64,000 nt of DNA, from positions 78,432,001-78,496,000 of the forward strand of contig NC_086108.1 of the NCBI RefSeq assembly GCF_963921235.1. The letters are read 5' to 3'. This DNA is from Mobula hypostoma. Its lineage: Eukaryota. A program made the position numbers and the translations under genes. Below are positions 4,241 through 56,672 of this stretch, one piece after another (within the stretch, counting starts at the first letter, position 1; each line of letters opens with the position of its first letter). The notes beneath the pieces were generated by a model. The model searched no databases and was not told the DNA's origin. It saw nothing but the letters and a program-made list of their open reading frames with translations.

Positions 4241-6224
4241 GCCTGTCGGATGTTGACAATGGCAGTGACGTGACATGGATGGAACAATGGGAGTAGCACA
4301 CAAAGGAATGGCAAGGCAAAGATGAAGACGATCACAAAAAACAAAAATTACATTGGCAAGGATTCAGATTCGGTCTGAATGTTAGTTGGGATACAACTGA
4401 TGTTCAGCATGCTACCTTTATACTATTCCAGTTAGCATGATCACATAAGGTCTCCTAATTCCTAACGGGGGTTCTTAACCACATATTTGAAGCAGAGGTT
4501 GCTTTGAACACCTCAAGAGGAAATCTCGGGGTTGGCAGGTTCACTGATTGGCTTTAATTCATCGTTTAGTTCCAGTCAGCACTCTTCTCATTGTGCAACC
4601 TGCTTTCTGTAGATCTGTAGAGAAAGTTGAGCGGGTGTACTTGACCTACCAACTGTTAAACTGCATGAACTCATTCCGTGCTGTGAGTGAAGGGGAACTG
4701 TTGGGTACCCTGGTTACTATTTTATGCATCCCCAATAACATCTGTTTGGTTGGTAAAGTCAGATGAGATTGTCGAATTTCAGACGTGTTGTGATGACGAG
4801 TGCTCACTGCCTGCAGAGCTATGGTTCTTCCTGCATTCCAGTGCCTCATCCTTTTTTGGAATTGCCTGCTCTACTAACGGTCAGTCAGGTCTCGTGTCTC
4901 AAATTAGGGTGCTGCTTACTTTCTCCCCCCCCCCAAACAATCTTGAACAGCTCCTGACAATTTCTATTTTCCCTAACACCCACTTCGGACACATAACCGC
5001 CCCGGTTGGGAATCACTGGTCCAAGCTATTCAATATTCAGCAGGTTTCATTGTGACCACCCCTTATTTTTCTAAACTCCAAATATTTTCTGTTTAGAAAA
5101 TAGTATACATTTTTATTCCTTCTACCAAAGTGCATGACCATACGCTTCCCAACACTATATTCCATCTAACAACACACACAAAAAGTGCTGGTGAACGCAG
5201 CAGGCCAGACAGCATCTATAGGAAGAAGTACAGTCAACGTTTCGGGCCCCATCTGCTACTTATTTTCTCAATCAGTCCAAGTTCTTCAGCAGACTTTTTT
5301 TATGTACTAGATAAAAGCACCTGCAATTTTATTTCTTCATTTTCTCACTTTCCCAGTTCTGACAAAGGGTCTTGAACCTAATCTTTAACTCCACTTCTCT
5401 TCCCTGAAATGCAACCGGATATGCTGTTTGTTTTCAGCATGTTGTATATAGATTTCAGTTCTCCAGTTTCTGTAGTATTTTACTTTTCATCAACTGATAT
5501 GGTCATAGTTTAAATATTGTCTAATTCATTGCAAAACTCAAAGTAAAGGATTTACTTAAGGATTTAGAAATATGAAGTCTAGAAAATGTTACATATGGAC
5601 TCATCTGGACTTAAGTTCCAAACAAACCACGACAAAGAAAGCCAAATTAAAAATACTTAAGTGGTAACAGACTTAACAAACATCAAGTAAACTTCAAAAA
5701 AGAAATCTAGCTATTCAACAGAAACAGATAAATGGACCAAGCAGTGCATCATTTCCAAAGTGAGATGCTGAAACTTTATAGATTATATCATTCCTGATAC
5801 AGCAAGAAAACACTTCACAGTTTCAAAATGTACTTTAATGTTCAGAGAGGCAATAAAATGTTCATTGTCAACAAGACTGTATTTCACTTGGATGGGAATT
5901 GACAAGCATATTTTTGCCATGCTTTCCATTTTTCTTTACATTCTTCATACTCCTTGCACTTTATGCTTGGGGTTAAATAACTTCAGATACATTTGCAACT
6001 TCTTTAGACTCTGCTTAAAAATAGGAATGGTGTAAGCCAATCCCTTTCTCAAGCTTGTCTCCCATTTCCTTTGATCACAGTTCATCCATTATTGTTTCAT
6101 ATTTCTTGAAATCTTAACAACTAAACAGTCTTTAAATGCATAAATTTCATTTAACATTTTGTATCATAGAAATTTGTTGTGCAGGAGGCCATTCAGACAT
6201 GCTCATCCATGCTAGCCAAAACAT

Positions 6225-7228
6225 AGACAAATGCTTTTCAGGACATCGGAAATGTCCTCCTTCTTCAAAGAATGGGGCTTCCCTTCCTCCACCATTGATG
6301 CTGCCCTCACCCGCATATCTTCCATTTCCCAGGCATCCGCGCTCACATCTTCCCACTGCCTTAATAGGGATGGAGTTCCTCTAGCCCTCACCTACTACAA
6401 CGAGCCTTTGCATCCGACACATCTTTCTCTGCAACATCTGCCATCTTCAATGGGACTGTCCACCAAACACACCTCCCACAAACCCCCTCCCACTCTCTGC
6501 TTTCTACTGAGAACACTCCCTCTGTGATTCCCTTGTCTGTTAATTCCTCCCCACTAATCTCCCTCCTGGCACTTATCCCTGCAAGTGGAAGAAATGCTAC
6601 ACCTGCCCATTTACCTTCTTCCTCACCTCCATATCTGTTGGGGTTGTCTACTGCATCCAGTGCTCCCGATGCTGATTCCTCTACATTGGTGAGACCTGAC
6701 ATAGATCGGGGTCAGCTTAGTCGAGCCCTTACACTCCACCTGCAAAAAGCAGGATTTCCTGGTGGTTAACCATTTCAATTCCAATTCCCATTCCGACACG
6801 ATGAGGCCACTCTCAGATTAAAAGAGCAACACCTTATATTCCATCTAGGTAGCCACACCACTAAATTTTCCCCTCCTACTTTACTCTTCTTCTCCCCAAC
6901 TGCCTACCACCTTCCTTTGGTGCCCCTCCTCCTTCTCTATCACCCATGGTCCACTCTCCTCTCTTCTCAAATTCCTTCTTCTCCAACCCTTTACTTTTTC
7001 CACCTATCACCTCCCAGCTTCTATCTTCATACCCCACCCCACACCCCTGGTTTTCACCTTCTAGTTTGTACTACTTTTTTCCCCCTACCCCCACCACTTT
7101 CTTATTTTGGCATCTTCTCCCTTCCTTTCCATTCCTGATGAAGGGTCTCGGTCCAAAACATTGACTGTTTGTTTATTTCCATAGATGCTGTATGACCTGC
7201 TGAGCCTCCAGCATTTTGTGTAGGTTAC
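6225..7228 (+). mobile_element. Penelope-like element (PLE), 5'-truncated: RT C-terminal linker, GIY-YIG endonuclease remnant and pseudo-LTR
   Basis: RTSEMSSFFKEWGFPSSTIDAALTRISS...VPLALTY; VYCIQCSRC*FLYIGET (GIY-YIG) near 6645-6696; LKEQHLIFHLGS; pyrimidine-rich 3' region ending in the CTGATGAAGGGTCTCGG terminal motif. Confidence 0.85.
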
Positions 7229-12759: not shown

Positions 12760-13875
12760 ATTGGTCCATGCCCTCACTATTTTGAGTACATTAATAATTG
12801 TTGTGATTGTACACATTTTCAAACAAGTTTCATAAATTTTGATACCAATTTTTTAGATTAATTAGATTATAAAGACACGTAGTCCCCTTTTATTGTCATT
12901 TAGTAATGCATGCATTAAGAAATGATACATTATTTCCTCCGGTGTGATATCACAAAAACACAGGACAAACCAAGACTGAAAAAACTGACAAAACCACATA
13001 ATTATACATATAGTTACAACAGTGCACAATACCATAACTTGATGAAGAAAGTTCATGAGCACAGTAAAGTTCAAAGTTTCTCAAATGTCCCACATCTCAC
13101 GCAGATGGGAGAGGGAAGAAAAACTCTCCCTGCCATGCCGACCACAATCCGACTCTGAGTCATTCGAAAACTTCGAACTCTGATCAGCTCTCCGACACCG
13201 AGTACTGAGCGCCATCTCTATCCGAGCGATTCGAACTCTTTCTCGGTCGCCAAAAGCAAGCAAGGCCAGGGATTTTGAGGCCTACCCTCCGAAAGATTCC
13301 CAACCACACTGTAACGACAGCAGCAGATGGGTGTTTCAGAAATTTCTCCAGATGTTCCTCTGCTTTCACATCCATTCTCCATCAAATCAGAAATTGTCCA
13401 CGGCCCCTATTTAACAGATACAACATCATTTTTCACCGGAGAGCTGCACACGTGCGGTGCGCTGCCATCTTCTCCTCCCGCCTACTCTCATTTGTATGCT
13501 ACTCTCATTTTCACATGGCCCATGCCTGACACATCCCTTCCTCTTTTATTCTATCACCATTTCACAGGATAGATGAATTAACAGTATCCAATACATACTT
13601 GCAAAATTCACAGCCACCTTGATTATATTTTCTCTCACTCTGCTTCCTGCATGGACAACATTCTAATCTCCCAGTTCCTCTGTCTCCAACAGATCTGTTA
13701 TGATCCAAGTCTGGCTATCTATCCTAAGCCCACCTGGATTCGATCATAAACATGAGAAAGTCTGAGCATGCTGGAAATCAGTCCTAAAGAAGGGTCTCGG
13801 CCTGAAACATCGACTGTTTATTCATATCCATAGATGCTGCCTGACCTACTGAGATCCTCCAGCATTTTGTGTGGA
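12760..13875 (+). mobile_element. Old Penelope-like RT remnant plus pseudo-LTR, interrupted by the element at 12853-13482
   Basis: Degenerate PLE RT peptides FINFDTNF / LIFTWPMPDTSLPL / HSHLDY...SQFLCLQQIC; terminal motif CAGTCCTAAAGAAGGGTCTCGGCCTGAAACATCGACTG at 13779-13816. Confidence 0.6.
12853..13482 (-). mobile_element. Non-coding retroposon (SINE or LINE 3' end) with (TCTAA)n tail; same family as 35463-36100
   Basis: Starts with TTAGATTAATTAGATT (reverse complement of a TCTAA tail) and is colinear with 35463-36100 over ~600 bp (TTTTATTGTCATTTAG...CCATCAAATCAGAA). Confidence 0.7.
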
Positions 13876-18310: not shown

Positions 18311-18357
18311 CTGACAACTTCTAGCAACTTGTGATATAAAACTACCAAGGCAATTAA

Positions 18358-18768
18358 AGCAACACACATCAAAGTTGCTGGTGAACGCAGCAGGTCAGGC
18401 AGCATCTCTAGGAAGAGGTACAGTCGACATTTCAGGCCGAGACCCTTCGTCAGGACTAACTGAAGAAAGATTTAGTAAGAGATTTGAAAGTGGGAGGGGG
18501 AGGGGGAGATCCAAAATGATAGGAGAAGACAGGAGGGGGAGGGATGGAGCCAAGAGCTGGACAGGTGATTGGCAAAAGGGATATGAGAGGATCATGGGAC
18601 AGGAGGCCCAGGGAGAAGGAAAAGGGGGAGTGGGGGAAAAACCCAGAGGATGGGTAAGGGGTATAGTCAGAGGGAGAGAGGGAGAAAAAGGAGAGAGGGA
18701 GAAAAAGGAGAGAGAGAGAGAGAATGTGTGTATAAAAATAAATAACGGATGGGGTACGAGGGGGAGAT
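18358..18768 (-). mobile_element. Penelope-like pseudo-LTR / 3' UTR fragment
   Basis: Near-identical to 46988-47103 and 43001-43370; carries the hammerhead-like core at 18421-18457 followed by a purine-rich tract. Confidence 0.85.
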
Positions 18769-36904: not shown

Positions 36905-39900
36905 TGTGGTAACTTCTACTTTGAAAGAGGCACACTCTGCAACTTCATGCTCAAAGGAACAACTTTATCTCGAACGTCAAAAATGTTATGTTTATACAGA
37001 GGCTTTCACAACCTGTACGGCATAGCAGGAACAGTATATACAAAGCACACCAGAGGTAAAAAGAACGGAAGTAAAACCCCCCCATTATCCTAATTAGTAT
37101 TAACTTACTTTTAATAATGCTGACATTACAACACTTCTCCCCCTTTAAAATACAACATTCCCCAAATGTCAAAAAAACTAGGAAATAAAACAGTGGTATT
37201 ATTAACTTGCGTACCCCTGAAAACTTAAACTAGTACCTCAGCAACAGTTAACCAATGCAAAATATTTGGAAAACATGACAGATTCAACATTCAATCTAAC
37301 AACAACAAAAAAAACTGTCCCGTCAAAGATTCATTCTGTCAGGAGGTTTACCAGTGCGCTATGAATATCCCTTCTCAGCAGCTGTCAGGGTACATGAACC
37401 AAAACCAATAGGCTTCTCTGATCGGAGCTCCATTACATGTGAGAGAATTGCCCCGACTCCATAGGGCGAGGCATTGCATGCAAGTGTGATCTCCTTGTCT
37501 GTGTCATAGTGAAGAAGCAGCTTTGCTGAGTGGAAGAGTTATTTCATTCCTTGAAAGCTTTCTCCTGCTCTTCACCCCACTGCCACTTAGTGTCATTGTG
37601 AAGCAGTTTATACAGTGGGGTCAAAACCCGTGAGAGGTCAGGAAGAAACTTGCCATAATGATTCACCATGCCTAAAAATGATCTGAGTTCTGTGACGGTC
37701 TTGATGCTTAGGGCCTCCTTAATAACTCTCACTTTGTCCTCCACAGGGCAAAGCCCCTCAGCTGTGATCTTGTGTCCCAGGTAAGTCACACTTAATGCCA
37801 GGAACACACAGCCCTGCGTCTGAGATCCTCTTCAGCACCCGTTCTAAATTAGCTAGATGCTCCACTTCCGTGATCAAAATATCATCAAGGTACACTGCTA
37901 CATGCGGAATCCCCTGCAGCAAAGTGTCCATTGTCCTTTGGAAAATGGCAGGGCTGGACGCCACTCCAAACACCAGGTGATTGTACTTGAATAGTCCCTT
38001 GTGTGTATTAATTGTGATGTACTCCTTCGAATCCTCATCAACCAGCAGCTGTTGGTAGGCATGGCTCATGTCCAGCTTTGTGAACAGCTTACCCCCTGAC
38101 AAGGTCACAAACAGGTCATCCACCCATGGCAATGGGTACTCCTCCAGCCTAGAGACCTGATTCACCGTAAGCTTATAATCCCCACGTATCCTCACCGTTT
38201 TGTCTGCCTTAAAAACTGGAACAATGGGAGCCGCCCACCTTGAAATCTGGACAGGCTCAATAATGCCCAGCCTCTGTAAACGTTCCAGCTCCTCCTCGAC
38301 TTTGCCTTTCATGGCATAGGGCACTGACCTGGGCTTAAAAAAACGTGGTGTAGCCTCAGGGTCGACATTGGAGTTTCACTGTCATGCCCTTTGGTGTTCC
38401 TAGCTCGTCCCTGAAAATGTCACTGTACCGCTGCAGAATCTCCTCCGTTGTGGGTGCATACTTAATTTCATGCCAGTTTAGTCGGATTTTGCAAAGCCAA
38501 TCACGACCCAAAAGACTGGGGCCCCTGCCCTTAGCTATCACTAGCCTGGCTTCAGCCTTCCGACCCCCGGCTGAAATGTCCACATATAACACCTCTAAAT
38601 GAGGTATGAGCTGCCCCGTATAGGTCCTGAGTTTGAGCTTTGATGGTCTAATGGGAGGCAGGTTGGACCCCCATGTCCTCCTGTAGGTCTCCTCACTAAT
38701 AAAGGATGCAGTAGCCCCTGAATCAATCTCAAACTTAATGTCCTTTCCCCTGACAGTGACTGTAGCATAATATGGTTCAGGTGGTTCCTCATCTGTTTCC
38801 ACTCCAAACATGTTGTAGACACACGCTGCCTCTTCATCTGCATCTTCTAGATGGTGTGTGACTGCCTGAGCCTGTTGAGCTTTCCCCTGCCCAAGCTTAA
38901 ATTTACCCTTTGAACTTATGCACTTTTTAGCTAAATGTCCCTTTTTGCTACAAGCATGGCAGACAGTGTCTTTGAATTTGCAATCCTTTGCATAGTGCGT
39001 CCCTCCACACCGGAAACATTCCACCCGCTTTGCCTGTTTACCAATCTCCCTCTTGACTTGGTGCACTGCCGCTGACTGCGATTCCCCCCCCCCCATGTCC
39101 TTTCTGCATATCGTTGACATTATTAGCAGCCATCCCCATGCCTTGGGCAATCTCTAAGGCTTTCTTGAAAGTCAATGGTGGGGTTTCCCTTAACAGGCGG
39201 TGTTGTATGCCATTATTATTAATGCCGAATACCAATCTATCACAGAGCATGTCTTCCAACACCGCTCCAAAATCACAATGCTCCGACAACCGCCAAAGCT
39301 CGGCCACAAAATTGGCCACAGACTGACCTGGCTTCCTGAAACAGCTGTGAAACTTACACCGTTGGACTATCACAGAAGGTTTCGGATTGTAGTGGTTCCC
39401 CACGAGCTTGACCAGTTTGTCAAACTGGTCAAGCTCGGTTTCTGCAGTGTGGCTAAATTCCTTATTAGCTTGTAAGTCTTTGCCCCACACACACTCAGGA
39501 GAATAGAGCACTTCATAGCCTCCTCAGTAATTCCATTAGCACAGAAAAAGTGTCCCAACCTTTCCTCATACTCCGGCCAGTCCTCCGTTAACTCCACAAA
39601 TTCAACAATAGTCCCAAACATAGCCATCTGAACGTGAGGCCCCTTACTAGCGCTGCTGCTCCTGTTCAAAATGTGCCGACACATCCACAAAACCAGTTTA
39701 CCTCGTCGCCAAAAATATGTGGTAACTTCTACTTCGAAAAAGGCACACTCGACAACTTCATGCCCAAAGAAACAACTTTATCTCGAATGTCAAAAACGTT
39801 ATGTTTATACAGAGACATCCAAGACCCGTATGGCATGGCAGGAACAGTATATACAAAGCACACCAAAAGTAAAAAGAACGGAAGTAAACCTACCCCCCCA

Positions 39901-39954: not shown

Positions 39955-41276
39955 CCGGGTACTAACACTTTCAAAGGAAAAAATGTAAATCTAGTGCTGC
40001 AAGATAAACTGAACTGGTTACAGATGTTTCCTTAAAATTTCTTGTCTTGTTAGAGTTATAATTATACTCCTGCACTTCTGGCTGAACATCTGCTGATTAA
40101 CAATCTTTGAGAGATAATATTTTGATTTTAAATATTAATTTGTGACTTACTCAGGTTGTCTGTCTTAAATAGACAGACCTCTAAATCACTTTTAATAATT
40201 CACTATCTTCATTTCATATGATGCTTTTATGTGTATGATTTAACTAATTAATAATTTAATTCAACTAATGATGCTTAGGAGAGTGCTTCCAGATCAAAGA
40301 CAAGGGTATCTGAGGCAATGAAATTTATTGCTGAATGTGTACATACCAGTTGAAATGAACTATCCCAGTTTTATCTACCTTTTTCAACTCTTGGCCTAGT
40401 TTACAAAGTGTAGCAAGAACCTAAATCTGTGTAGTTGTGCAAACATAAAAAAAATTCATCTCAATCATAGAATCACAGATTGATTAGAACACAAACAAAA
40501 TCCATTTTACACGTGTTGTCCTTTCTGTCTCTTTACCAATTTCACCTCTGCCCCTGTCCCTTCTCTGCAGCTTCACAGTTTATTTATCCTGTTCCCTCTT
40601 GAAGACAGCAACGGGCAGTGCAATCCAATTCCAGCTATATACTAGTAAAAAAAATTTTTACCCATATCACTTTTAATTCTGTTCCCCTATATTTTGTACC
40701 TGTGATTTCTACACTAGGACTGCTCCACTAGCAGGAACAATTTCCCACTATCCATCCTATCATTATTTTATCAGCTTCTATCCATCTCCTCTCAGCTTTT
40801 TCTTCTCCAAACAGTTGCAGACTCTTGAGTAGACCAAATAACTGTAGTCTCTCATCCTAGGAACCATTCTTGTAAATCTTTCTTTCTTTTCTTTCTATGG
40901 CCTTCAAATCCTTCCTATAATGAGAGATCTAGAATTGAACACAGTACTCAAGTTTAATGAACAGTTTTAAAAAAAGGAATAAAACGTACATCTGTAAGTT
41001 TGACACATGCCAAAATGTAGACATCTATGAGCAGGTAAGGAATTTTGTTTCATGATTTGTCTCTTTCACGATTTAAAAAGTGACACTCCTGTGTGAGGGC
41101 TACAGAAATGTGCAGTCACCTTGTGCATGCCAGTTGTGGGGTGGATCAAAAACTTTGCTCTGCGTACTCATCAGAGCAGACAGCATCTGTAGAATGGGAA
41201 ACAGAGTGAACATTTCAGGTCAAGGGCTTTTCATCAGAAAAGTTAACATTATTTCTCTCACTACATATGCTGCTTA

Positions 41277-41986: not shown

Positions 41987-42999
41987 TTAATTTCATGTGC
42001 ATTTCCTTGCAGACTACAGCTGGTATTTTTCAGATCAGAATCAGGTTTAATATCACTAGCATATGATGTGCAATTTGTTATCTTTGTGGCAGCAGTGCAA
42101 TGCATGATAATAGAGCAAAGAGAAAACTGAATTACAGTAAGAATATATATATAGTTAAATAAGTAGGGTAAAATTGGAAATAAAACAAGCAGTGAGGTAG
42201 TGTTTCATGGGTTCAATGTCCGTTCTGAAATTGGATTACAGAGGGGAAGAAGCTGTTCCTAAATTGTTGAGTGTGTGCCTTCTGGAATCTGGTCCTCCTT
42301 CCTGATGGTAGCAATGAGAAGAGGGCATGTCCTGGGTGGTGGAGGTCCTTAACGATGGACGCTGCCTTTCTGAGGCCCTGCTCCTTGAAGATGTTTTGGA
42401 TACTACAGAGTCTAGTGCCCATGATGGAGCTGACTAATTTTATATCTTGCAGATTACTTCAATTCTGTGCAGTAGCCCTCCCCCCACACAATGATGAAGC
42501 CAGTTAAAATGTTCTCCACTTCTGATCTCTCAATGAGGATTGGTGTGTCTTCTCTTGTCTCATCCTTTCTGAAGTCCACAATCAGCTCTTTGGCCTTACT
42601 GAAGTTGAGTGCAAGGTTTTTGCTACAATACCATTCAACTAGCTGATATATCTTGCTCTTCTATGCCTTCTCTTCATCTTCTGAGATTCTGCCAACAATG
42701 GTTATCATCAGCAAATTTATAGATGGTGTTTGAGCTGTGCCTTGGCACACAGTCATGGCTGCAGAAAGAGTAGAGCAGTGGGCTGGGCACACATCCCTAA
42801 ATTGCACCAGTATTGATAGTCAGCAAGGTGGAGATGTTATTTCCATTCTGCGCAGATTGTGGTCTTCCAGTTGTGAAGTCAAGAATCCAGTTGCAGATGA
42901 AGGGACAGAGGCCCAGATTCTGGAGCTTTTCAATCAAAATTGTAGGAATGATGGTGTTAAACAATGAGCTGTAATTAATAAACAACACCCTGACATAGG

Positions 43000-43552
43000 C
43001 AACACACACAAAATGCTGGTGGAGCACAGCAGGCCAGGCAGCATCTATAGGAAGAAGTACAGTTGACGTTTTGGGCAGAGACCGTTCATCAGGACTAACT
43101 GAAAGAAGAGATAGTAAGAGATTTGAAAGTGGGAGAGGGGGAGATCTGAATGGGTAGGAGAAGACAGGAGGGGGACAGATGAAGCCAAGAGCTGGAAAGT
43201 TGATTGGCGAAAGGGATACAAGGCTGGAGAAGGGAGAGGATCATGGGACAGGAGGCCTGGGGGGGGGGAGAAAGGGGGAGGGGAGAGCAGGCGGGGAGTT
43301 ATTGTGAGAGGGACAAAGAGAAAAAAAAGGGGGGGAAATAATAAATAAATAATGGATGGGGTAAGAAGGGGTGGAGGCCCTCCCCTTCTTACTATCTCTT
43401 ATTTCAGTTAGTCCTGACGAAGGGTCTCGGCCCGAAATGTCGACTGTACTTCTTCCTATGGATGCTGCCTGGCCTGCTACATTCCACCAGTATTTTGTGT
43501 GTGTTACTTGAATTTCCAGCATCTGCAGGTTTCCTCGTATTTGCGTTTTTAA
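43000..43552. mobile_element. Penelope-derived insertion with inverted pseudo-LTRs and 13-bp TSD
   Basis: Left arm (~43001-43118) is the reverse complement of ~43387-43505; TSD ACCCTGACATAGG at 42987-42999 and 43553-43565. Confidence 0.88.
43410..43446 (+). ncRNA. Minimal type I hammerhead ribozyme motif (Penelope pseudo-LTR)
   Basis: AGTC-CTGACGA-A-GGGTCTCGGCCC-GAAA-T-GTC-GACT: conserved CUGANGA and GAAA core, stem II GGGU/GCCC, GUC triplet at 43439-43441, stem I AGUC/GACU. Confidence 0.7.
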
Positions 43553-43844
43553 ACCCTGACATAGGTATTTGTGTTGTCCAGGTGATCCAAGGCCACCTGG
43601 AGAGCCAGTCAGATCGCGTCCGCGTAGACCTATTGTGGCGATAGGCAAATAAAGAATTTAAAAAAACTTAGCCTCTGCCGTGTTTAATTTTGTGTAGGCT
43701 GTAAATTACATGCTACTATAATGTACGAAATAATAAGGTAGGGTGTAGTGTTAGATTTGAATATGGCTGAGGTCTGTTTTGAAAACCTCCACAATTAAAC
43801 CTATTCAAATTACCCTGATTGATTCATTTACATCAGTATGGGAC

Positions 43845-44010: not shown

Positions 44011-44352
44011 TTGCTGCTGGAATTAAGGGAGCTTTGCAGACTTGCGTTTATTTCTTCAGCGCCAGTCTCTTTGCAAATCAGAACTCACGAGTTCTTTCAG
44101 AGAAGTTTATTTTTTTACACCGTCTATGAAAGTATTCGGCACATGCTGATTTTAAAAATATCTCAGTAACGTTTTGAAGAACCTCAAACGGTTTGCATCA
44201 AAGGTCCAGAAACGGAGACAAGGCACTCCGTGTGAAACCAAGACCCCGCTGTTTAATCTCGGGACGTGGGATTTCGCTTGAAAGTGTCTTCAGTTGCAGA
44301 TTATTAAAAATAAATATCCGGATTGCAGCAACGAACTATGCCAGAAGAAAGC

Positions 44353-44676
44353 ATGTCAGCGCAGACCGGCGGACTGCTGTCCCTCTCCCTACTGTTGTCA
44401 CTGTTGGTAAAAGGGAGCCTGGCGTTTTCGGTGCCCAGAACTTGCGAGGCTAACGGCAGCGTGTATTATCTGGGCGAATGGTACTATCTGGACTCGGATC
44501 ACTGCATTCAGTGTGAGTGCACGGTCGGCGGACCGGTGTGTGGCCGCGCCGACTGCCCGGCCCTGCCACCGCCTTGCATACATGTCAGCTACTACCCGAA
44601 CGACTGCTGTCCTCGCTGTGAAAGGATCGGCTGCGAACACCGGGGCCATGTCTATGAGCTCGGGCAGCAGTTCCAG
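44353..44676 (+). CDS. Secreted VWC-domain protein (brorin/VWC2-like family), exon 1: signal peptide plus first VWC domain
   Basis: MSAQTGGLLSLSLLLSLLVKGSLA (hydrophobic signal) then CEANGSVYYLGEWYYLDSDHCIQCEC...CPALPPPCIHVSYYPNDCCPRCERIGCEHRGHVYELGQQFQ; donor CAG|GTAATA, phase 0. Alternative in-frame ATG at 44338. Confidence 0.93.
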
Positions 44677-45941
44677 GTAATAAGCACACCATCAGGAGGG
44701 AGCATTGGTGGTGGTGGAAGTGTGTGAGTGATTGGGTGATAGGAGTAGGTGACTGGAGTCTGTGTGTGGTAGGGGCTTGGTGTACCAGTGTGCATGGTAG
44801 GGAGTTGCAGTACGTGTGTTTTGAGGGGCTGGGGTGTGTGCATGATGGGGATTTGGGGCAATTGTATGAAGGAGTGATTGGAGTTGAAGAGATGAAGTTT
44901 GTGATTGAAAAAGGAGAATGCATGATAGAGTATTTGGTGCACGTGTGCGATGTAGATTTGGAGCGTGTGTGGTGAGGAATTGGTATTTTTGCCATGGAGG
45001 GAAGGGGTGTGTGATGAATATGTGATGGAAGGGTCAATATGAGGGTACTGTGTATGAGCAGAGATTCTGATTTGCACGGAGAGCACCACATCTGTGTGTC
45101 TGCCTGTGTAGAGAAATTGTCTTGTGTATTTTGAGGGACTCTTGTGGTTTTGGCATGTTTTATGTTTTGGCACACATTGGGGGTTGCTATGTTTGTCAGA
45201 ATCAGAAATGGGCTGTTTAGACTTCATGTATGTGCTGTGTGCGGATACCCTATCCCATTTCTGCACTTAGGTGCTAATTTAAATACTTCCCCAATGTAAT
45301 GGCGTGTCTTGCCTCCACCTGCCCACTCATGCAATAATTTGTAGGTTTCAATCACCTTCTGGTGAAAAACATCTTCAAATTTCCTTTAGATCTCTGAAAC
45401 CCTGTACCTTAAACTCTGGTTATAGATCATCCACACCTTCATAATTTTGTATGCCTTAATCAGGGCTCCTCTTAACCTTTGCTTTTAAAAAAAAAACACC
45501 TTATCCAGTATCTCTTCATTGTTGAAACATTGCATCCAGACAACATCCTGGTAAATCTCTTCTGTTTTTCCTCCAGTGCAACTATAGCATTCCCATAGTC
45601 TCGCAACCAGAATTGCATGGAGTATTTCAGCTATGACCTAACTAACCAGTGTTTTATATTGTTACACCATAACCTCCTTGCTGACGAAGGAAAGTAAAAA
45701 TATTGATTGCTCATGTTACTGAAGCCCATCAGAGATTCTTGGACATGTATGCCAAAGTTCCACTGTCTCTCAGTAGTCCTTGCAACCTTACAAGTGATTG
45801 TGTATGTCCTAGCATGCTTTGTTCTCTCAAGTGTAACACCTCATATTTTTCAAGGTTAAATTCCATCTGCCAACTTTCTGCTCCTCTTATCAAACTGATT
45901 AATATTCTGTAGCTGAAGACAATTCTCTACCCTCCACAATG

Positions 45942-45973
<32 letters not shown>

Positions 45974-45983
45974 ATGTATGTAT
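45942..45983. repeat. (GT)n / (GTAT)n microsatellite
   Basis: GTGTGT run followed by ATATGTATGTATGTAT. Confidence 0.9.
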
Positions 45984-47051
45984 TGGGATACTGCTATGCA
46001 TCTGTGGAAGACAATTGCCATATGTACATGAGAAATAGGATGGTCACACACAAGTGGATGCTGGTTTAAGTCGTTCATCTTGTCCAGAAAAAAGAATCAT
46101 CTTTTCTGCCCCTCCTTTTGTTTCTTTCCACTTTATTTTTTGATTTTTTTGTACAGCATGGTACAGTACCAGGCCCTTCTGGCCCAATGAACCCATAGTG
46201 ACCAATTAACCTACTAACCTGTATGCCTTTGCCCTCCTGTTCTTTTGCCTTACACTTTCAAATGTTTTTTCCCGTTTCCCTCTTTCCTGATCCACAATCT
46301 CAGTCCATCATTTTTCCAGTTAGCATTTGTAATTGTTTATAGATTTTTTTATTTACTAGTTCCAGGAACCCTTTGTTTGTCAGTAATGGTTACACCCTAT
46401 TTGGTTGGCATTTCATTCCTATTCATTAGCATTCCTGTCTCCACCACCATCCCAGTCCTGTTTTTTGTGTCCTCTTCACTATATCCTTCAGTTTAGTGGC
46501 TGAAGCATGTGTATATGTAAGGAATCAATTTGAACGCTGACATTCCTTTGCAAGATCTTGTCTGTTCCATTCAAAGGCCTCCTACAGAATATACAAAACA
46601 GATGTATAAATAGTCCATCAAATAGAATTAACTGCATTCTCTGAATTAATGGCATTTATTGTTTTGTCTCCAAACTTAAAAGGCCAATAAAGCACTAGCA
46701 GGCTTTTGTTGTGACTGTGTCTAAGCCACATAGAGACTGAAGTTGTTATATGTAAAAGTTTTTTATTCATCACAACAAAGGCGCATTCTGATGAGATGCT
46801 CTTAGTATTATCTCCCTGAACTCAAAGAGCATTGAGTTTTTATGCTTGTAAGAACAGGTAACAGCTGATGATCCAATACAGTTTTGATAACTACAATGAC
46901 ATAATTCATTTCATTATTTTGAGTCCAACAAATGTTCCAATGAATTAAAAACGCAAACAACAGGAATTCTGCAGATGCTGGAAATTCAAGCAACACACAT
47001 TAAAGTTGCTGGTGAACGCAGCAGGCCAGGCAGCATCTCTAGGAAGAGGTA

Positions 47052-47088
47052 CAGTCGACGTTTCAGGCCGAGACCCTTCATCAGGACT
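47052..47088 (-). ncRNA. Minimal type I hammerhead ribozyme motif, best-preserved copy
   Basis: Minus strand reads AGTC-CTGATGA-AGGGTCTCGGCCT-GAAAC-GTC-GACTG: intact core, palindromic loopless stem III (ACGU), predicted cleavage after GUC between 47057 and 47056. Confidence 0.75.
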
Positions 47089-47155
47089 AACTGAAGGAAG
47101 AGTTTAGTCCAAAGAAGAGAAAGAAGAGTTTAGGAAGTTTACTCTTCCTTCAGTT

Positions 47156-47192
47156 AGTCCTGACGAAGGGTCTCGGCCTGAAACGTCAACTG
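47156..47192 (+). ncRNA. Minimal hammerhead ribozyme motif, sense to the VWC-gene intron
   Basis: AGTC-CTGACGA-AGGGTCTCGGCCT-GAAAC-GTC-AACTG: intact core; first stem I pair mismatched (G to A). Confidence 0.6.
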
Positions 47193-49414
47193 TACCTCTT
47201 CCTAGAGATGCTGCCTGGCCTGCTGCGTTCACCAGCAACTTTGATGTGTGTTGCTTCCAATGAATTACATAATTACAATGGGAACACATTGTAACTAAAA
47301 GACACCTCTGAATGTTCAAACTCTTTTCTGGAGCAAAGTAATTCACATTGATGGCCTAAATGCTTCTGAGAACAGAGAATTCAGACACCCAAAAGGGCTT
47401 GACTCTCTGAGTACATCAATATTCCAGTTATTTACCAGACAGAAAACATGTTTATGACCATATTTCATGTGTTAGTGCCTGGAACATTTCTTGATCAATG
47501 GCACAATGATATAGAAAGACTTAGCTGAAATTGTCTAATGCTTGATTTGACATAAACCAGATAAGGTTGGCTGATGGATATGAGAATGTCCTGTGGTCTT
47601 GTCAGTTTGTAAACCATATCTCTTGAGTGCCCTCCTGCCGTGGGACAGTAACCCTTGCTTGGTGGACAACACAGTTTGTTTATTAAGCTGTTACCTTAAT
47701 TTCAAAACATTATTGCATTTGAACAGGTTTTGCTTTGAAGACTGGTGCTCTTGTTCTATGTCTAACCATCTTTAACAGCCTTTAGGTCAAAGCATGATCA
47801 CATAATGTTGAAAACATTGGAAAATTGCCTACGATGTGCTTTGTCCATTATGGATAAATTATAGCCTAGTTCCCTTTTTTAGCAAATTCCTTGAATGTTA
47901 GCATCAAGATCAATGCCCATCTACAGGAAAACTCCAGTATCCCATTGTTCAGAAATCCTAATGGCTCCCATTGGAGCACTGGAATTCTGGTTCCCGTGCT
48001 CAGTATTGCACAGCTAGACCCAGCTCCTACATTGCCTTTAACAGTAGTTCCCACACTTTCATTAATACAGTAAAGCCTTGGTTCCTGTATTATTAACATA
48101 CTGGTGCCTTGTTCCAGCGGTTCCATTGACATACTGGGGCCTGGACTCCCACACTTTCATTAGCACACTTCGGCACTGATTCCTATTCTCCCTCAAAAAT
48201 TCATCTGATTTAGTTTGCTGCACTCCCTTGAAATTCAGCAGGTTTGCTGGTAATCTGTTACATTACAGCATCTAAATAAAAATTGATAACAGTGCACTAG
48301 CATATTAATTGGAATATTATGTAATAGTCATGAAAATCTGCTAGCCTGGCTCCGCCAAATTCCCAAGCACGCTGGATTGATGAGTCTTAGTGCACCTTGC
48401 AAATCTCTGCTTGAAACTCCAGTTAAATTTCCAGCTCCCACTTTTTCTCACAGAGGATCGAAAATGGCCCTAATCAAACTAGTAGCTTCCAACATGGAGC
48501 ATTTGACAGGCTATCTTTCCACTAAAGCTCATCCAATAATAGCTGGAGAGGTTTCTATTTCCCCATGTTCTTCAGCTTGTGAATCTTGCACTTATACGAA
48601 CAAAGATCAAAACACCTCCATACACCACCAATCTCCTCTGCCACGTTGAATGTTCCCACACTAAGTGACCTTTTTATACCATTCACCTCCGCAGATAAAA
48701 GATTTAATATTGGAATCTGTGTGAATAGCTTCATAAACAGCATCATGATACTGTATAGTTTAATTTTGTTTCATTTCTATAAATCTAAGGGCAATAATTG
48801 AACTATAGATTTTATTTGATTTGGCAGATATGGTGACATGAATAGATCATTTTGGCCCTTGTATCAGTATCTTCTGTGTTAGCAACTTGATCAGCGAGTT
48901 TGGCTGAGGCTAGACAGTTTACTTAAAATTTCTCCTTTGGGATTCTGAGGTAATACTATTTTCTAGCAAAACAGTAGAATTCTGTCCAGATCCAATGGCC
49001 GTTTAGGTCTTCCTCTTAATGTTGCAGTAAAGTTCATACAAATATTTTTTTTCCCAGACTAACAAGTATTGTACTGTAGAGGTAGAATAACTTCCAGTGG
49101 AAGACCATTACTCATGTTACTGTATTTGATTGAACTGCGATTCTGACCCTTCACTATACCATCTCCATCATCAAAATCACTTGCTTTCACCTCTATAATA
49201 TCACTCATTTCTATCCCTGCTTCTAACTGCTTTTATACATCCATCTATTTATTGTTACATTTGTCTCTTCCTATTTCCTCAAGTCTAATCTCCTACCTTC
49301 TTCCGGACAACAACATGACCTGATCTAAAAGTCATCATCTTTCTTCATAATAAATCACAGGCACATTACTCCCCACCATTGGTAGTATCCACAGAAGAGC
49401 TGTCTCAAGAGCAC

Positions 49415-52400
49415 CCTTGTGGCTGTACCACTTGACAATAAGTACTCCTGCTTGAGTACTGTTGGGGGAAGCAACAGTGGCAGCGCCTCTGGCATAGAGT
49501 CTGGCCCTGTGGCTCAGAAGGGTAGGGAAAGGAAGAAGATGGTAGCAGTCATAGGGGACTCTATAGTTAGGGGGTCAGACAGGCAATTCTGTGGATACAG
49601 GAAAGAAGCACGGATGGTAGTTTGCCTCCCAGGTGTCAGGGTCCGGGATGTTTCTGATCGCGTCCACGATATCCTGAATTGGGAAGGAGAACAGCCAGAG
49701 GTCGTGGTACATATTGGTATAAACAACATAGGCAGGAAAGGTGGGGGAGGTCCTGAAAGCAGACTACAGGGAAGTAGGGAAGTAAATTGAGAAGCAGGAC
49801 CACAAAGGTAGTAATCTTGGGATTACTGCCTATGCCACGTGACAGTGAGTATAGGAATAGAGTGAGGTGGAGGATAAATGTGTGGCTGAGGGATTGGAGC
49901 AGGGGATAGGGATTCAGATTTGTGGATCAATGGGACCTCTTTTGGGGCAAGCGTGACCTGTACAAAAAGGACGGGTTGCAATTGAATCCGGGGGGAACAA
50001 TATCCTGGCAGGGAGGTTTGCTAAGGCTATTGGAAAGAGTTTAAACTAGAGTTGCTGGGGGGTGGGAACCAAACTGAAGAGACGAAGGAAGAGGCGGTTG
50101 GCTCACAAATAGAGAAAGCTTTGAGACAGTGCGAGAGGGGGGATAGGCAGTTGATAGAGAAGTGATGCGCTCAGACCGATGGTTTGAGATGTGACTTTTT
50201 TAATGCAAGGAGTATTATGAACAAAGTGGATGAGCTTAGAGCATGGATCAGTACTTGGAGCTATGATGTTGTGGCCATTACAGAGACTTGGATGGCTCAG
50301 AGGCAGGAATGGTTACTTCGAGTGCCAGACTTTAGATGTTTCAGAAGGGACAGAGAGGGAGGCAAAAGAGGTGGGGGTGTGACACCGTTGATCAGAGATA
50401 GTGTCATGGCTGCAGAAAAGGAGGAAGACATGGAGGGATTGTCTGCAGAGTCTCTGTGGATGGAAGTTAGGGACTGGAAGGGGTCAATAACTCTACTGGG
50501 TGTTTTTTGTAGACCACCCAATAGTAACAAGGACATCGAGGAACAGCTAGGGAGACAGATTCTGGAAAGGTGTAATAATAACAGGGTTGGCGTGGTGGGA
50601 GATTTTAATTTCCCAAATATCGATTGGCATCTCCCTAGATCGAGGGGTTTAGATGGGGTGGAGTTTGTTAGGTGTGTTCTCGAAGGTTTCTTACACAATA
50701 TGTAGGTAAGCCTACAAGAGGAGAAGCTGTACTTGATCTGGTATTGGGAAAAGAACCTGTTCAGGTGTCAGATCTCTCAGTCGGTGTGTATTTTCGAGAT
50801 AGTGATCACAATTCTATCTGCTTTACCATAGTATTGAAGAGGAATAGGAACAGACAAGTTCGGAAAGTGTTTAATTAGAGTAAGGGGAAGTATGAGGCTA
50901 TCAGGCAGGAACTTGGAAGCATAAATTGGGAACAGATTTTCTCAGGGAAATGTACGGAAGAAATGTGGCAAATGTTCCAGCGATGTTTGCATGGAGTTCT
51001 GCATAGGTACGTTGCAATGAGCCAGGGAAAGGATGGTAGGGTACAGGAATGGTGGTGTACAAAGGCTGTTGTAAATCTAGTCAAGAAGAAAAGAGCTTGT
51101 GAAAGCTTCAAAAAACTAGGTAATGATAGAGATCTAGAAGATTATAAGGCTATCAGGAAGAAGCTTAAGAAAGAAATTCGGAGAGCCAGAAGGGGCCATG
51201 AGAAGGCCTTGATGGATAGGATTAAGGAAACCCAAGGCTTTCTACAAGTATGTGAAGAGCAAGAGGATAAGACATCGGAGGATGGGACCAATCAAGTGTG
51301 ACTGTAGAAAAGTGTGTATGAAACCAGAGGAGATAGCAGAGGTACTTAATGAGTACTTTGCTTCAGTATTCACTACAGAAAAGGATCTTGACGATTGTAG
51401 GGATGACTTATAGTGGACTGAAAAGCTTGAACATATAGATATTAAGAAAGAGGATGTGCTGGAGCTTTTGGAAAGCATCAAGTTGGATAAGTCACTGGGA
51501 CCAGATGAGATGTACTCTAGGCTACTGTGGGAGGCAAGGGAGAAGATTGCTGAGCCTCTGGCGATGATCTTTGCATCATCAGTGGGGACAGAAGAGGTTC
51601 TGGAGGATTGGAGGTTTGTGGATGTTGTTCCATTATTCAAGAAAGGGAGTAGAGATAGCCCAGCAAATTATAGACCAGCGAGTCTTACTTCAGTGGTTGG
51701 TAAGTTGATGGAGAAGATCCCGACAGCCAGGATTTATGAACATTTGGAGAGGTATAATATGATTAGGAATCGTCAGCATGGCTTTGTCAAAGGCAGGTCG
51801 TGCCTTACGAGCCTGATTGAATTTCTTGAAGGTGTGACTATACACAGTGATGAAGGTAGAGCAGTAGGTGTAGTGTATATGGATTTCAGGAAGACATTTG
51901 ACAAGGTACCCCATGCAAGGCTTATTGAGAAAGTAAGGAGGCATGGGATCCAAGGGGACATTGCTTTATGGATCCAGAACTGGTTTGCCCAGAGAAAGCA
52001 AAGAGTGATTGTAGACGGGTCATATTCTGCATGGAGGTCAGTGACCAGTAGTGTGCCTCAGGGATCTGCTCTGGGACCCCTACTCTTCGTGATTTTTATA
52101 AATGACCTGGATGAGGAAGTGGAGGGGTGGTTTAGTAAATTTGCTGATGAGACAAAGGTTGGGGGTGTTGTGGATAGTGTGAAAGGCTGTCAGAGGTTAC
52201 AGCGGGACATTGATAGGATGCAAAACTGGGCTGAGAAATGGCAGATGGAGTTCAACCCAGATAAATGAGAGGTGGTTCATTTTGGTAGGTCAAATATGGC
52301 AGAATATAGTATTAACGGTAGACTTTTGCCAGTGTGGAGGATCAGAGGGATGTTGGGGTCCAAGTCCATAGGACACTCAAGGCTGCTTTGTAGGTTGACT

Positions 52401-53012
52401 CTATGGTTAAGAAGGCATACGGTGCATTGGCCTTCATCGATCGTGGAATTGAGTTTAGGAGCCGAGAGGTAATATTAGACCCCACTTGGAGTACTCTGTT
52501 CTAGTCGCCTCAGTACAGGAAGGATGTGGAAACCATAGAAAGGGTGCAGAAGAGATGCACCCTTTCTATAGTTTCCACATCCTTCCAGGGATGTTGCTTG
52601 GATTGGGGAGCATGCCTTATGAAAACAGGGTGAGTGAACTCAGCCTTTTTTCCTTGGAGCGACAGAGGATGAGAGGTGACCTGATAGAGGTGTATAAGAT
52701 GATGAGAGGCATTGATCGTGTGGATAGTCAGAGGCTTTTTCCCAGGGCTGAAATGGCTAGCATGAGAGGGCACAGTTTTAAGGTGCTTGGAAGTAGATAC
52801 AGAGGCAATGTCAGGGGTAAGTTTTTTTACGCAGAGAGTGGTGAGTGCATGGAATGAGCTGCCGGCAATGGTGATGGAGGTGGATACAACAGGGTCTTTT
52901 AAGAGGCCCCTGGAGCTTAGAAACCCTAGGTAATTTCTAAGACAAGGACATGTTCGGCACAGCTTTGTGGGCCAAAGGGCCTGTATTGTGCTGTAGGTTT
53001 TCTATGTTTCTA
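49415..53012 (+). mobile_element. Nearly full-length decayed CR1 LINE (ORF1 esterase, ORF2 APE endonuclease and RT)
   Basis: SGNH-esterase-like VAVIGDSIVRG...CLPGVRVRDV...VVVHIGINNIGR; APE FNARSIMNKVDEL, VAITETW, GDFNFPNIDW; RT VPQGSALGP, KFADE; tail TTTTCTATGTTTCTA; many frameshifts. Confidence 0.95.
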
Positions 53013-53219
53013 AGAAGGCAACATCTGTCATCAAGGATTCCCACCATACTGGCCATGCCATTTTATCGCAGCTACCATCGGGCAGGAGGTACAGAAGCTT
53101 GACATCCCGCTCACCAGTTTCAATAAGTTTTGGTTCTTGAAGCAACTGGCAAAGCCCTAACAACTGTAGTTAAGCAGCGCTATGAACATTTTGACCATTG
53201 AGCACTAACATGGACGTAA

Positions 53220-53430
53220 GAGATTCTGCAGTTGCTTGAAATCTAGAGCAACATACACAAAATCATGGAGCGACTCAGCAAGTCAGGCAATATCTATGAA
53301 AGAGAATAAAAAAATTGATGTTTTGGGCCAAGACACTTCTTCAGGTCTCAGCCCAAAATGTCAACTGTATATACCATTCCATAGATGCAGCCTGACTTGC
53401 TGAGTTCTTCCAGCATTTTGTGTGCGATGC
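53220..53430. mobile_element. Older Penelope-derived fold-back element
   Basis: CACAAAAT...CTCAGCAAGTCAGGC...TTTTGGGC mirrored by GCCCAAAATG...GCCTGACTTGCTGAG...ATTTTGTG. Confidence 0.7.
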
Positions 53431-53954
53431 ACTAAAATGGGCTTTTGTTTTGTTCTAAACAAAATATTGAGTGCAAATTTGCATTTGTTTTTCTTGTGAA
53501 TACTTGTGAATTTTCTTGTAAATGGCATAAATGTACATATGAAAATAAACTTGATTTTGACTTCTACTTTGAATTTGATCTTATTCATGTTATCAAAATT
53601 CTGAGAAACACGAAGTATGGTTTCCAAGTCCAGAGTTCCTTAAGTGGAAAATCAAAAATGAAAGGAGAGAGACAATTTTGAAGTTAATCATTAAACAGAG
53701 TCTTGAATTCAATTCCAACCAATACACTTTAGGAAGAATACGAATATCCCAGGGATGGTGTGAAAAGACCAATGCAGATATGGTCAGGGTCCCACCTGGA
53801 CTACTGTAATTTCAGCCTAGAATGTCAGAAGTATTTACAAATGTTGGAGGAGGTACTAGAGTAACTGCATAGAGGTCTAATTGCATAGCCTTGCTGTGTA
53901 TTTCTTTGATTTTAGTTGATTGAAATTTCTTTAAAATAGATAAAGGGATTTAAA

Positions 53955-54522
53955 TACTGGTATGGAAACACCAGTGACCTTGTAGCCATCAAAAATTAGT
54001 GGATATGGCCCAGTTCATCATGGGTATAGCACTCAGTGCCATTGAGCACATCTGCATGGAGCACTGTTGCAGGAAAGCAGCATCTATCATCAAGGAGCCC
54101 CACCGCCCAGGCCATGCACTCTTCTCACTGCTGCCATCAGGAAGGTGATACAGGAGCCTCAGAACCCACACCACCAGGTTCGGGAACAGTTATTACCCCT
54201 CAACCATCAGGCTCTTAAGCCAGAGGGGATAACTTCACTTGCCCATCACTGAACTGGATTCACTTTCAAGGACTTTTCATCTCATTTGATATTGATTGCT
54301 TACTTATTATTATTGTTATTTTTCTCTTTTTTTGTATTTGTGCAGTTTGTTGTTTTTGTTTTGCACATTGGTTGTTGTCCTTCCTGCAGGGTATAGTCTT
54401 TCATTGATTCTATTGTGTTTTTTGTATTTACGGTGATTGGCCGTAAGAAAATAAATCTCAGGGGTGTATATGGTGAGATATACATACTTTGATAATAAAT
54501 TTACTTTGAACTTTAAACTTTG
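53955..54522 (+). mobile_element. Rex-Babar LINE 3' end
   Basis: KAASIIKEPHRPGHALFSLLPSGR; 3' UTR ending GATAATAAATTTACTTTGAACTTT. Confidence 0.8.
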
Positions 54523-56522: not shown

Positions 56523-56672
56523 CATCTATGGAAATGAATAAACAGTCGATGTTTTGGGCGGTGACCCTTCTTCAGACTGGAGAAGGGTCTCTGCCTGAAA
56601 CGTCGATTGTTTATTCATTTCCATAGATGCTGCCCGACCTTCTGAGTTACTCCAGCATTTTGTGTGTGCTGC
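56523..56672. mobile_element. Short Penelope-derived fold-back element
   Basis: 56523-56571 is the imperfect reverse complement of 56581-56629 with a 9-nt spacer; both arms carry decayed hammerhead-core halves. Confidence 0.8.

What the first reader, a model, noticed from the sequence alone, without database searches (positions are those of the whole stretch)
47052..47192. Dispersed family of minimal hammerhead-ribozyme motifs in Penelope-derived termini
Seen: a ~37-nt motif AGTC-CTGA(T/C)GA-A-GGGTCTCGGCC(C/T)-GAAAC-GTC-GACTG recurs at 7131-7167(+), 13779-13816(+), 18421-18457(-), ~43060-43097(-), 43410-43446(+), 47052-47088(-), 47156-47192(+) and 56543-56579(-). It has the hammerhead core (CUGANGA, GAAA, GUC cleavage triplet), a 4-bp stem II, stem I AGUC/GACU, an extra A after A9, and a loopless palindromic stem III (ACGU). 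Established: Penelope-like elements carry minimal type I hammerheads thought to cleave efficiently as dimers, so the class is known but usually unannotated. Inference: most differences between copies (GAAAT, AAAAC, CCT, AAC) are CpG deamination from one active consensus, and the youngest copies may still self-cleave.
Basis: partly seen in the sequence, partly recalled or inferred. Interest (0 to 1): 0.75.

Follow-up and report, generated by a model that had tools for sequence, protein, structure and literature searches.

The report
Decaying Penelope hammerheads in ray genome
These short motifs are real leftovers of a known kind of jumping gene (Penelope-like) that carries a tiny RNA predicted to cut itself; most copies here are damaged, and the highlighted pair is one back-to-back insertion whose RNA is predicted to fold into a long hairpin that would block cutting, so the finding is ordinary.

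Summary
The motif is at all 8 listed sites (5 within 3 mismatches, 0 expected by chance), with at least 5 more partial or decayed copies. It has the published minimal type I hammerhead layout. One copy lies just downstream, in sense, of a decayed Penelope-like frame with a CX4CxxC linker and GIY-YIG, whose best hits are stingray proteins. 47052(-) and 47156(+) are a single tail-out inverted insertion with a 13-bp target duplication, predicted to fold into a 116-bp hairpin. Only 47052(-) keeps the core, stem I and the ACGU palindrome. CpG decay explains most differences between copies. The exception is U11.1 (CCT): 64-76% of depth in three organism labels against 3-6% for the mirror change, so it was inherited from a master copy. 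There are at least two subfamilies, not one consensus. No copy starts at the predicted cut site, which fits copying from uncut RNA. Cleavage was not tested. The class is known (PMC4209133, PMC8557442, PMC11167929), and this scan has noted it before: 2576 findings in at least 71 genomes, 1838 in this genome.

The parts
46935..46947 (+). left target-site duplication (13 bp; last bases overlap the element end)
   Evidence: equal score in 0 of 400 random zone pairs
46945..46987 (-). optional ~43-bp tail, present on this arm only
   Evidence: (I2, I21); one-sided 30-40 bp tail described in PMC8557442 passage
46988..47051 (-). 3' terminus of the pseudo-LTR, downstream of the hammerhead
47052..47088 (-). 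minimal type I hammerhead motif, best copy: all 11 core bases, stem I and ACGU intact, G10.1.U11.1 wobble; predicted cut between 47057 and 47056
47089..47155 (.). head-to-head junction: about 19 and 13 bases of upstream pseudo-LTR plus a spacer with short duplications
47156..47192 (+). second arm's hammerhead: core intact, U11.1, G1.1>A breaks the first pair of stem I; predicted cut between 47187 and 47188
47193..47256 (+). 3' terminus of the second arm, without the optional tail
47255..47267 (+). right target-site duplication
6157..6853 (+). decayed 3' part of a Penelope-like frame (end of RT region, CX4CxxC linker, GIY-YIG), with stops and frameshifts
   Evidence: tblastn E 1e-26 to P0001; 3e-16 to full-length P0005
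7131..7167 (+). hammerhead motif about 280 bases downstream of that frame, in sense; second subfamily; G12>A, G16.2>A, C17>U
13780..13816 (+). second-subfamily copy that begins at the 5' edge of stem I, joined to what reads as an inverted tail; G5>A, G16.2>A
18357..18704 (-). long young-subfamily terminus; hammerhead 18421-18457 with U11.1 and C15.2>U
42987..43565 (.). second tail-out inverted insertion with a 13-bp duplication (42987-42999, 43553-43565); hammerheads 43060-43096(-) (G10.1>C, G12>A, G1.1>A) and 43410-43446(+) (C11.1, C15.2>U)
53202..53440 (.). third inverted insertion with a probable 12-bp duplication (1 mismatch); the arms meet inside the hammerhead
   Evidence: (score reached by 3 of 400 random pairs)
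56523..56672 (.). fourth inverted pair; arms meet at the hammerhead's 5' part; 56543-56579(-) has G12>A and a 1-base deletion; no duplication found
5170..5248 (-). copy truncated inside stem II, so the CUGANGA half is missing
5355..5426 (+). old decayed relative with a U-A pair at 2.1/1.1
41155..41238 (-). old decayed relative

Best explanation
The motifs are minimal hammerhead sequences in the terminal repeat of an abundant Penelope-like retrotransposon, and the copies in this window are 5'-truncated, CpG-decaying insertions that likely no longer cut. In the parent element the motif would fold only as a dimer (stem I and the ACGU palindrome pairing between two units of a tandem transcript), probably with help from the element's protein, and would cut 3' of GUC (inferred from the class). 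Reverse transcription likely starts at one of two sites about 100 and 145 bases downstream of the motif's start and runs through the uncut site. Inverted pairs such as 47052/47156 likely arise when both target strands are nicked about 13 bases apart, each end primes a cDNA from the RNA's tail, and the two truncated cDNAs are joined head to head (inferred). After insertion, CpG deamination hits five CpG sites in the motif, which include G8, G12, the stem III palindrome and the cleavage site (shown for G12, stem III and the cleavage site). The latest wave in some lineages was copied from a master with a G10.1.U11.1 wobble.
For: Layout matches the min-HHR consensus in PMC4209133. Penelope frame upstream of 7131 in sense; P0002 has a weak GIY-YIG Pfam match (E 0.002, below the curated cut-off); P0001 retrieves 54 long proteins, most annotated RVT_1, and 48 of 54 have CX2-5CxxC ahead of a GIY-YIG-like motif. 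Target duplications of 13, 13 and 12 bp flank 3 of 4 inverted pairs. The tail is on one arm only. 73,878 contigs of one DNA run were laid on a 178-base stretch. CpG positions vary 9-12% per side in the motif and 14-18% at a flanking CpG. None of 12 hammerhead-bearing copies of the two main subfamilies begins at the cut site. Between subfamilies the motif is 33/37 identical against 19/29 and 25/40 downstream (18421 vs 13780), and 29/37 against 38/64, 16/27 and 25/39 (18421 vs 7131). PMC11167929: an anole element nicks and extends both strands, starts RT internally at two sites, needs protein for ribozyme cleavage and inserts uncut RNA.
Against: No cleavage or transcript-end data: no raw RNA reads were available. 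No full-length element or tandem was seen, and no genome is held. Covariation among 12 window copies is no better than shuffles (3 pairs with two-sided change; 201 of 500 shuffles as high). Nearest-neighbour energies disfavour the active dimer (-12.7 kcal/mol against -19.6 for two misfolded monomers and -27.9 for the best dimer), so even the parent's activity needs protein or tertiary help. The window's own GIY-YIG fragment has no Pfam match, and Rfam finds no hammerhead family in the window. Depth shares are weighted by contig depth and partly uncounted (warning); X19 rests on 28 contigs. The pairs at 13.7k and 56k have no detectable duplication.
Confidence: 0.85

Rival explanations
1. The youngest dispersed copies still self-cleave in host transcripts as dimers, cutting the pre-mRNA of the VWC-domain gene whose intron holds them.
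For: 47052(-) keeps all core bases, stem I and ACGU. G10.1.U11.1 occurs in 6 of the 44 published min-HHR rows I read, so it need not be lethal. The 47k and 53k pairs lie in an intron, 44677-54883, on the + strand.
Against: The sense copy in that intron is 47156(+), whose first stem I pair is broken. A read-through transcript is predicted to form a 116-bp hairpin (-242.7 kcal/mol, z -31). Monomers are predicted to misfold by pairing G5-G8 with C15.2-C17. Published min-HHRs cleave weakly even as dimers.
Confidence: 0.07
2. The short copies are a separate non-autonomous element (retrozyme or SINE-like) with its own short RNA that begins at the hammerhead's 5' edge and is mobilised by the Penelope enzyme, rather than truncations of full-length RNA.
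For: Loose ends pile up at 47086-47088 and 18455-18457, the first bases of stem I, in the runs laid; some have long, low-agreement continuations that look like unique flanks. Two of 6 second-subfamily copies (13780, 53312) begin at that edge and a third (56543) may. Li et al. 2026 derive animal retrozymes from Penelope repeats.
Against: Much of that loose-end pile resembles the second subfamily's own upstream sequence, so subfamily divergence explains part of it. Young-subfamily copies begin at scattered offsets (-13, -19, -23, about -245, about -245, +19). One copy is continuous with the coding frame. No tandem array of a fixed unit appears in the window. This is compatible with the main reading if the element's own transcript starts at the hammerhead.
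Confidence: 0.2
3. The motif was never catalytic in this lineage and is kept only as a protein-binding or promoter element, or by chance.
For: No significant covariation. The active fold is disfavoured in energy terms. A master with U11.1 amplified to high copy number. Hammerhead-less Naiads proliferate well (PMC8557442 passage).
Against: All 11 core bases, the extra base after A9 and the palindrome match a layout shared across animal phyla. The motif is the best-kept stretch between subfamilies. An old copy shows a C-G to U-A swap at 2.1/1.1 (one sequence). The anole motif cleaves with protein and shows C3/G8 rescue.
Confidence: 0.1

Closest known systems
Minimal hammerheads (min-HHR) of metazoan Penelope-like elements (Cervera and De la Pena 2014, PMC4209133; read parts 1-2 of 4 of the main text and part 2 of 3 of supplementary file 2)
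   Same: Type I layout, CUGANGA plus one extra base, G10.1, GAAA followed by loopless CGUC, short stem I, thousands of dispersed single copies, and pairs on opposite strands 100-700 bp apart.
   Different: Stem II has only 4 bp (7-8 in the schistosome examples). No shark or ray row among the 44 rows read, and no hit for shark, skate, Callorhinchus or Leucoraja in file 2; file 1 could not be searched.
EN+ Penelope-like elements of the Neptune/Nematis type (Craig et al. 2021, PMC8557442; passages only)
   Same: C-terminal GIY-YIG preceded by a CX2-5CxxC linker, 5' truncation, inverted 5'-truncated copies, a one-sided 30-40 bp tail, and a hammerhead in the pseudo-LTR.
   Different: No tree was built, so Neptune versus Nematis is not resolved. 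The insertions here are in non-repetitive A+T-rich sites with 12-13 bp duplications, not microsatellites.
Poseidon of Anolis carolinensis, PAc (Frangieh et al. 2024, PMC11167929; read parts 1-2 of 4)
   Same: Hammerhead at the pseudo-LTR, two 3' ends downstream of it, insertion of uncut RNA, activity on both target strands.
   Different: PAc is in the Penelope/Poseidon clade, which lacks the linker motif. Its frame starts inside the hammerhead, which could not be checked here. PAc was tested biochemically; this element was not.
Animal non-LTR retrozymes (Li, Clavereau and Pollet 2026, bioRxiv 10.64898/2026.07.22.740005; read part 1 of 5 and passages; supplements not seen)
   Same: Type I hammerheads related to Penelope pseudo-LTRs, reported in one chondrichthyan.
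   Different: Retrozymes are tandem arrays of a fixed unit; the copies here are single or inverted and vary in length.

Membership tests
Minimal type I hammerhead (min-HHR) | Core C3 U4 G5 A6 N7 G8 A9 and G12 A13 A14 A15.1, U16.1 H17 | tested here: met
   Complete in 4 of the 8 aligned copies (47052, 47156, 18421, 43410); G5 or G12 lost in the other 4 (53312 stood in for 56543, which also has G12>A)
Minimal type I hammerhead (min-HHR) | Open stem I, closed stem II, palindromic loopless stem III | tested here: met
   83% of cells paired against 17-39% for slid controls (the structure was drawn from these sequences)
Minimal type I hammerhead (min-HHR) | Extra base between 9 and 10.1; G10.1-C11.1 pair | tested here: inconclusive
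   Extra A present in all 12 aligned copies; pair is G-C in 5, G.U in 5, A-U in 1, broken in 1; G.U also in 6 of 44 published rows
Minimal type I hammerhead (min-HHR) | Covariation in stems I and II | tested here: inconclusive
   3 pairs with two-sided change, not above shuffles
Minimal type I hammerhead (min-HHR) | Self-cleavage 3' of H17 as a dimer | not testable with these tools
   No assay; only contigs, no raw RNA reads
EN+ Penelope-like element | Single frame with RT and C-terminal GIY-YIG | tested here: met
   Decayed 3' part at 6157-6853 matches RT/GIY-YIG proteins; the RT catalytic core itself is not in this copy
EN+ Penelope-like element | Hammerhead in the pseudo-LTR downstream of the frame, in sense | tested here: met
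   7131-7167(+) lies about 280 bases after the frame's last match
EN+ Penelope-like element | 5' truncation, inverted copies, optional one-sided tail | tested here: met
EN+ Penelope-like element | Partial tandem with a pseudo-LTR on both sides of a full frame | not testable with these tools
   No full copy in the window and no genome held; no match in metagenome or viral contigs
Neptune/Nematis clade | CX2-5CxxC linker ahead of GIY-YIG | tested here: met
   CX4CxxC in the window fragment (read-out) and in 48 of 54 long relatives
Neptune/Nematis clade | Placement on an RT tree with reference elements | not tested
   No named reference sequences were fetched
Non-LTR retrozyme | Tandem array of a fixed unit, each with a hammerhead | tested here: not met
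   Same-strand copies are 3.2 kb or more apart and differ in length
Rfam hammerhead families | Match to a covariance model | tested here: not met
   No hammerhead match up to E 1 in the window

The most novel reading that the evidence does not exclude
These copies record the Penelope insertion mechanism. A protein dimer nicks both target strands about 13 bases apart, primes two cDNAs from the two cut ends, copies straight through the uncut hammerhead and joins the products head to head. The latest burst in several rays came from a master whose ribozyme had already weakened to G10.1.U11.1, which would mean that cleavage is dispensable for spreading and that the motif mainly marks the RNA's 5' start.
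Probability: 0.35. Interest if true: 0.45.

Novelty: new member of a known kind. Interest (0 to 1): 0.18.

Why it matters
As a ribozyme discovery it matters little: minimal hammerheads in Penelope repeats have been in print since 2014, and this scan has noted them in many genomes. Two points have modest value. First, such motifs are missed by Rfam, and counting dispersed copies as active ribozymes would be wrong, since CpG decay falls on catalytic bases. Second, the tail-out inverted insertions with 13-bp duplications and the natural C11.1 versus U11.1 lineages give a ready test of two open questions: how Penelope elements integrate, and whether they need their ribozyme.

Tried and rejected
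Rfam scan: no hammerhead; two weak chance-level hits, one (PrrB/RsmZ, E 0.44) on the inverted pair. Whole genome: none held. Motif scans of metagenome contigs and viral contigs: 0 matches. Three raw-read DNA runs (X21-X23) laid 0 reads, so they gave no test. No RNA holder was listed on record; X15, X19 and X20 are only guessed to be RNA and are contigs, so expression and RNA ends were not tested. Pfam on three fragments of the window's decayed frame: no match. One search used a structure string with stem I one column off and was discarded. The CpG count wrongly treated column 10.1 as CpG and was redone. Folding z-scores of single motifs are unremarkable (-0.3 to -1.5), as are those of the tail region. 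Target duplications were not found at 7.1k, 13.7k, 18.4k or 56k, and the 6-bp match at 5.2k is chance-level. The tblastn hit at 13486-13698 was not followed up. I first read the loose-end pile at the motif's 5' edge as subfamily divergence only; it is probably a mix of that and true copy starts, and the tables shown cannot separate them. Lunse et al. (PMC5785218) is not held; I know it only through review passages (PMC6765202). Searches for this family in print listed no paper on a ray Penelope hammerhead or on two-ended priming by Penelope elements; this is weak evidence, as subscription journals, Repbase/Dfam and preprint supplements were not seen.

Full report
Observation. The 37-base motif is present at all eight listed sites. 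Five match within three mismatches, against none in 100 shuffles. BLAST and nhmmer add partial or older copies at 5170-5248(-), about 5355-5426(+), 41155-41238(-), 53244-53348(-), 53344-53430(+) and 56582-56672(+), a terminus-only piece at 17295-17344(-), and a doubtful hit near 32518-32599(-). The motif is the front part of a terminus of about 100 bases shared by all copies; some carry a further tail of about 43 bases.

Anatomy. Read as RNA, the best copy (47052-47088, minus strand) has stem I AGUC/GACU, CUGAUGA, an extra A, a 4-bp stem II with a CUCG loop, GAA, the loopless palindrome ACGU and C17. This is the min-HHR layout of PMC4209133. Rfam does not detect it. Of eight copies aligned without gaps, four keep all core bases and four have lost G5 or G12. 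Only 47052(-) also keeps stem I and the palindrome; a strict pattern finds just 47052 and 47156.

Origin. At 6157-6853(+), upstream of copy 7131 and in the same sense, lies a decayed frame with a CX4CxxC linker and a GIY-YIG motif. Its only two hits among 4 candidates are Hypanus sabinus proteins, so the window is probably from a ray (inference). One hit, P0001, retrieves 54 long proteins among 3630 candidates, most annotated RVT_1; 48 of the 54 carry the linker ahead of a GIY-YIG-like motif. That linker marks the Neptune and Nematis clades (PMC8557442 passages). No tree was built. The window fragment itself has no Pfam match, and P0002's GIY-YIG match is below the curated cut-off.

Architecture. 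The two copies at the finding's coordinates are arms of one insertion. They are 116-base inverted repeats, 97% alike, with their 3' tails facing outwards, flanked by a 13-bp duplication at 46935 and 47255 (none of 400 random zone pairs scored as high). The arms differ at three places, two of them CpG transitions. The 43k pair has the same build with a 13-bp duplication, the 53k pair a probable 12-bp one, and the 56k pair none that I could find. Inverted truncated copies and a one-sided tail are described features of these elements, and opposite-strand min-HHR pairs were noted in 2014. The 47k and 53k pairs sit in an intron (44677-54883) of a VWC-domain gene on the plus strand.

Decay. In the eight aligned copies, CpG-type transitions fill 20 of 80 CpG cells, against 8 changes in 216 other cells (arms of one insertion are not independent). 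In DNA run X5 (organism B; 73,878 contigs laid; counts partly dropped by the tool, and no differences listed above 47070), every listed difference inside the motif is at a CpG position. Three CpG sites vary 9-12% per side, and a flanking CpG 14-18%. One search gives the same picture in four other runs, with two listed exceptions (U1.4>A in 19% of X20 depth; a stem II change in one X19 contig) and nine rows not shown. Position 11.1 is different. It is C in 36% (B), 24% (A) and 26% (D) of depth, but 71% (E, 28 contigs) and 84% (F), while the mirror change G12>A is 3-8% everywhere. Per-copy decay would give similar shares on both sides, so U11.1 was fixed in a master copy that later amplified. 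G.U at this pair also occurs in 6 of 44 published rows I read, so it is not unique.

Selection on the motif. Between the two main subfamilies the motif is better kept than its flanks (33/37 against 19/29 and 25/40; 29/37 against 38/64, 16/27 and 25/39), and loose ends in the runs pile up at both of its borders. Covariation among 12 window copies is not above shuffles, so this test is inconclusive.

Can these copies cut? Probably not. A transcript across the 47k locus is predicted to form a 116-bp hairpin of -242.7 kcal/mol. Isolated monomers are predicted to misfold, pairing G5-G8 with C15.2-C17. The active dimer scores -12.7 kcal/mol against -19.6 for two monomers and -27.9 for the best dimer (the model ignores Mg2+ and tertiary contacts). 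Published min-HHRs cleave weakly even as dimers, and the anole one only with protein. None of the 12 hammerhead-bearing copies of the two main subfamilies begins at the predicted cut: young copies start at -13, -19, -23, about -245 (twice) and +19 relative to stem I; second-subfamily copies start at about 0 (13780, 53312, possibly 56543), +9, +13 or far upstream (7131). The cut lies at +32. Copies spanning that bond were templated by uncut or religated RNA, as reported in vitro for the anole element. No RNA ends could be tested.

Mechanism. Shown: the sequence layout, the link to a Penelope-like frame, the inverted build with duplications, CpG decay and the inherited U11.1. Inferred: dimer- and protein-dependent cleavage in the parent's tandem transcript; internal RT starts giving the two 3' ends; two-ended priming to make inverted pairs. 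The last follows from the anole protein nicking and extending both strands and being predicted to dimerise.

Prior work. The class is in print (PMC4209133, PMC8557442, PMC11167929; retrozymes in one chondrichthyan). My searches listed no paper on this ray family, but Lunse et al. is not held, and one supplement of PMC4209133 and the preprint's supplements were not seen. Earlier notes of this scan cover the same ground: 2576 findings in at least 71 genomes and 1838 in this genome, including 12-14 bp duplications, two-armed hairpins and copy starts at the hammerhead's edge. These are unchecked AI notes and are not counted as support. One of them made me re-read the loose ends at the 5' edge as partly true copy starts.

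Verdict. A real, correctly recognised motif of a known kind, in mostly dead copies. New member of a known kind; interest 0.18.

Noticed in passing
window 44338-44676 and 54884-55013 (+): Two coding exons of a secreted VWC2L-like protein (PF23333, PF00093), joined in phase by a GT-AG intron that holds the 47k and 53k inverted pairs.
   Followed up: partly
window 29114-31075 (+): Uninterrupted 653-residue frame with an RVT_1 domain, LINE-like (CR1 type by recall); more decayed relatives near 50166-52857.
   Followed up: no
window 37758-39777 (-): Broken gag, protease and RT stretches of an LTR retrotransposon, with 179-base direct repeats at 36905 and 39718.
   Followed up: no
window 18829-19725 (+) and 767-1919: DDE_1 transposase remnant (Tigger/pogo-like by recall) next to the 5' end of the long 18421 copy, with an inverted related copy near the window start.
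   Followed up: no
window 47089-47095 (-) and the same place in 18421, 43060, 43410, 47156: An initiator-like TCAGTT (motif recalled) lies just ahead of stem I in the young subfamily. Its CAGUU can also pair with the 3' strand of stem I and so compete with it.
   Followed up: no
window 47109-47140: The junction spacer of the inverted pair is built from short duplications of nearby sequence, as templated end-joining would leave.
   Followed up: no
window 1270-1486: 64-base inverted repeat, 97% complementary, 89 bases apart; gives a chance-level microRNA hit.
   Followed up: no
window 13486-13698 (+): tblastn match to the RT region of P0001 (E 2e-7) about 80 bases upstream of copy 13780; may be another Penelope fragment.
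   Followed up: no
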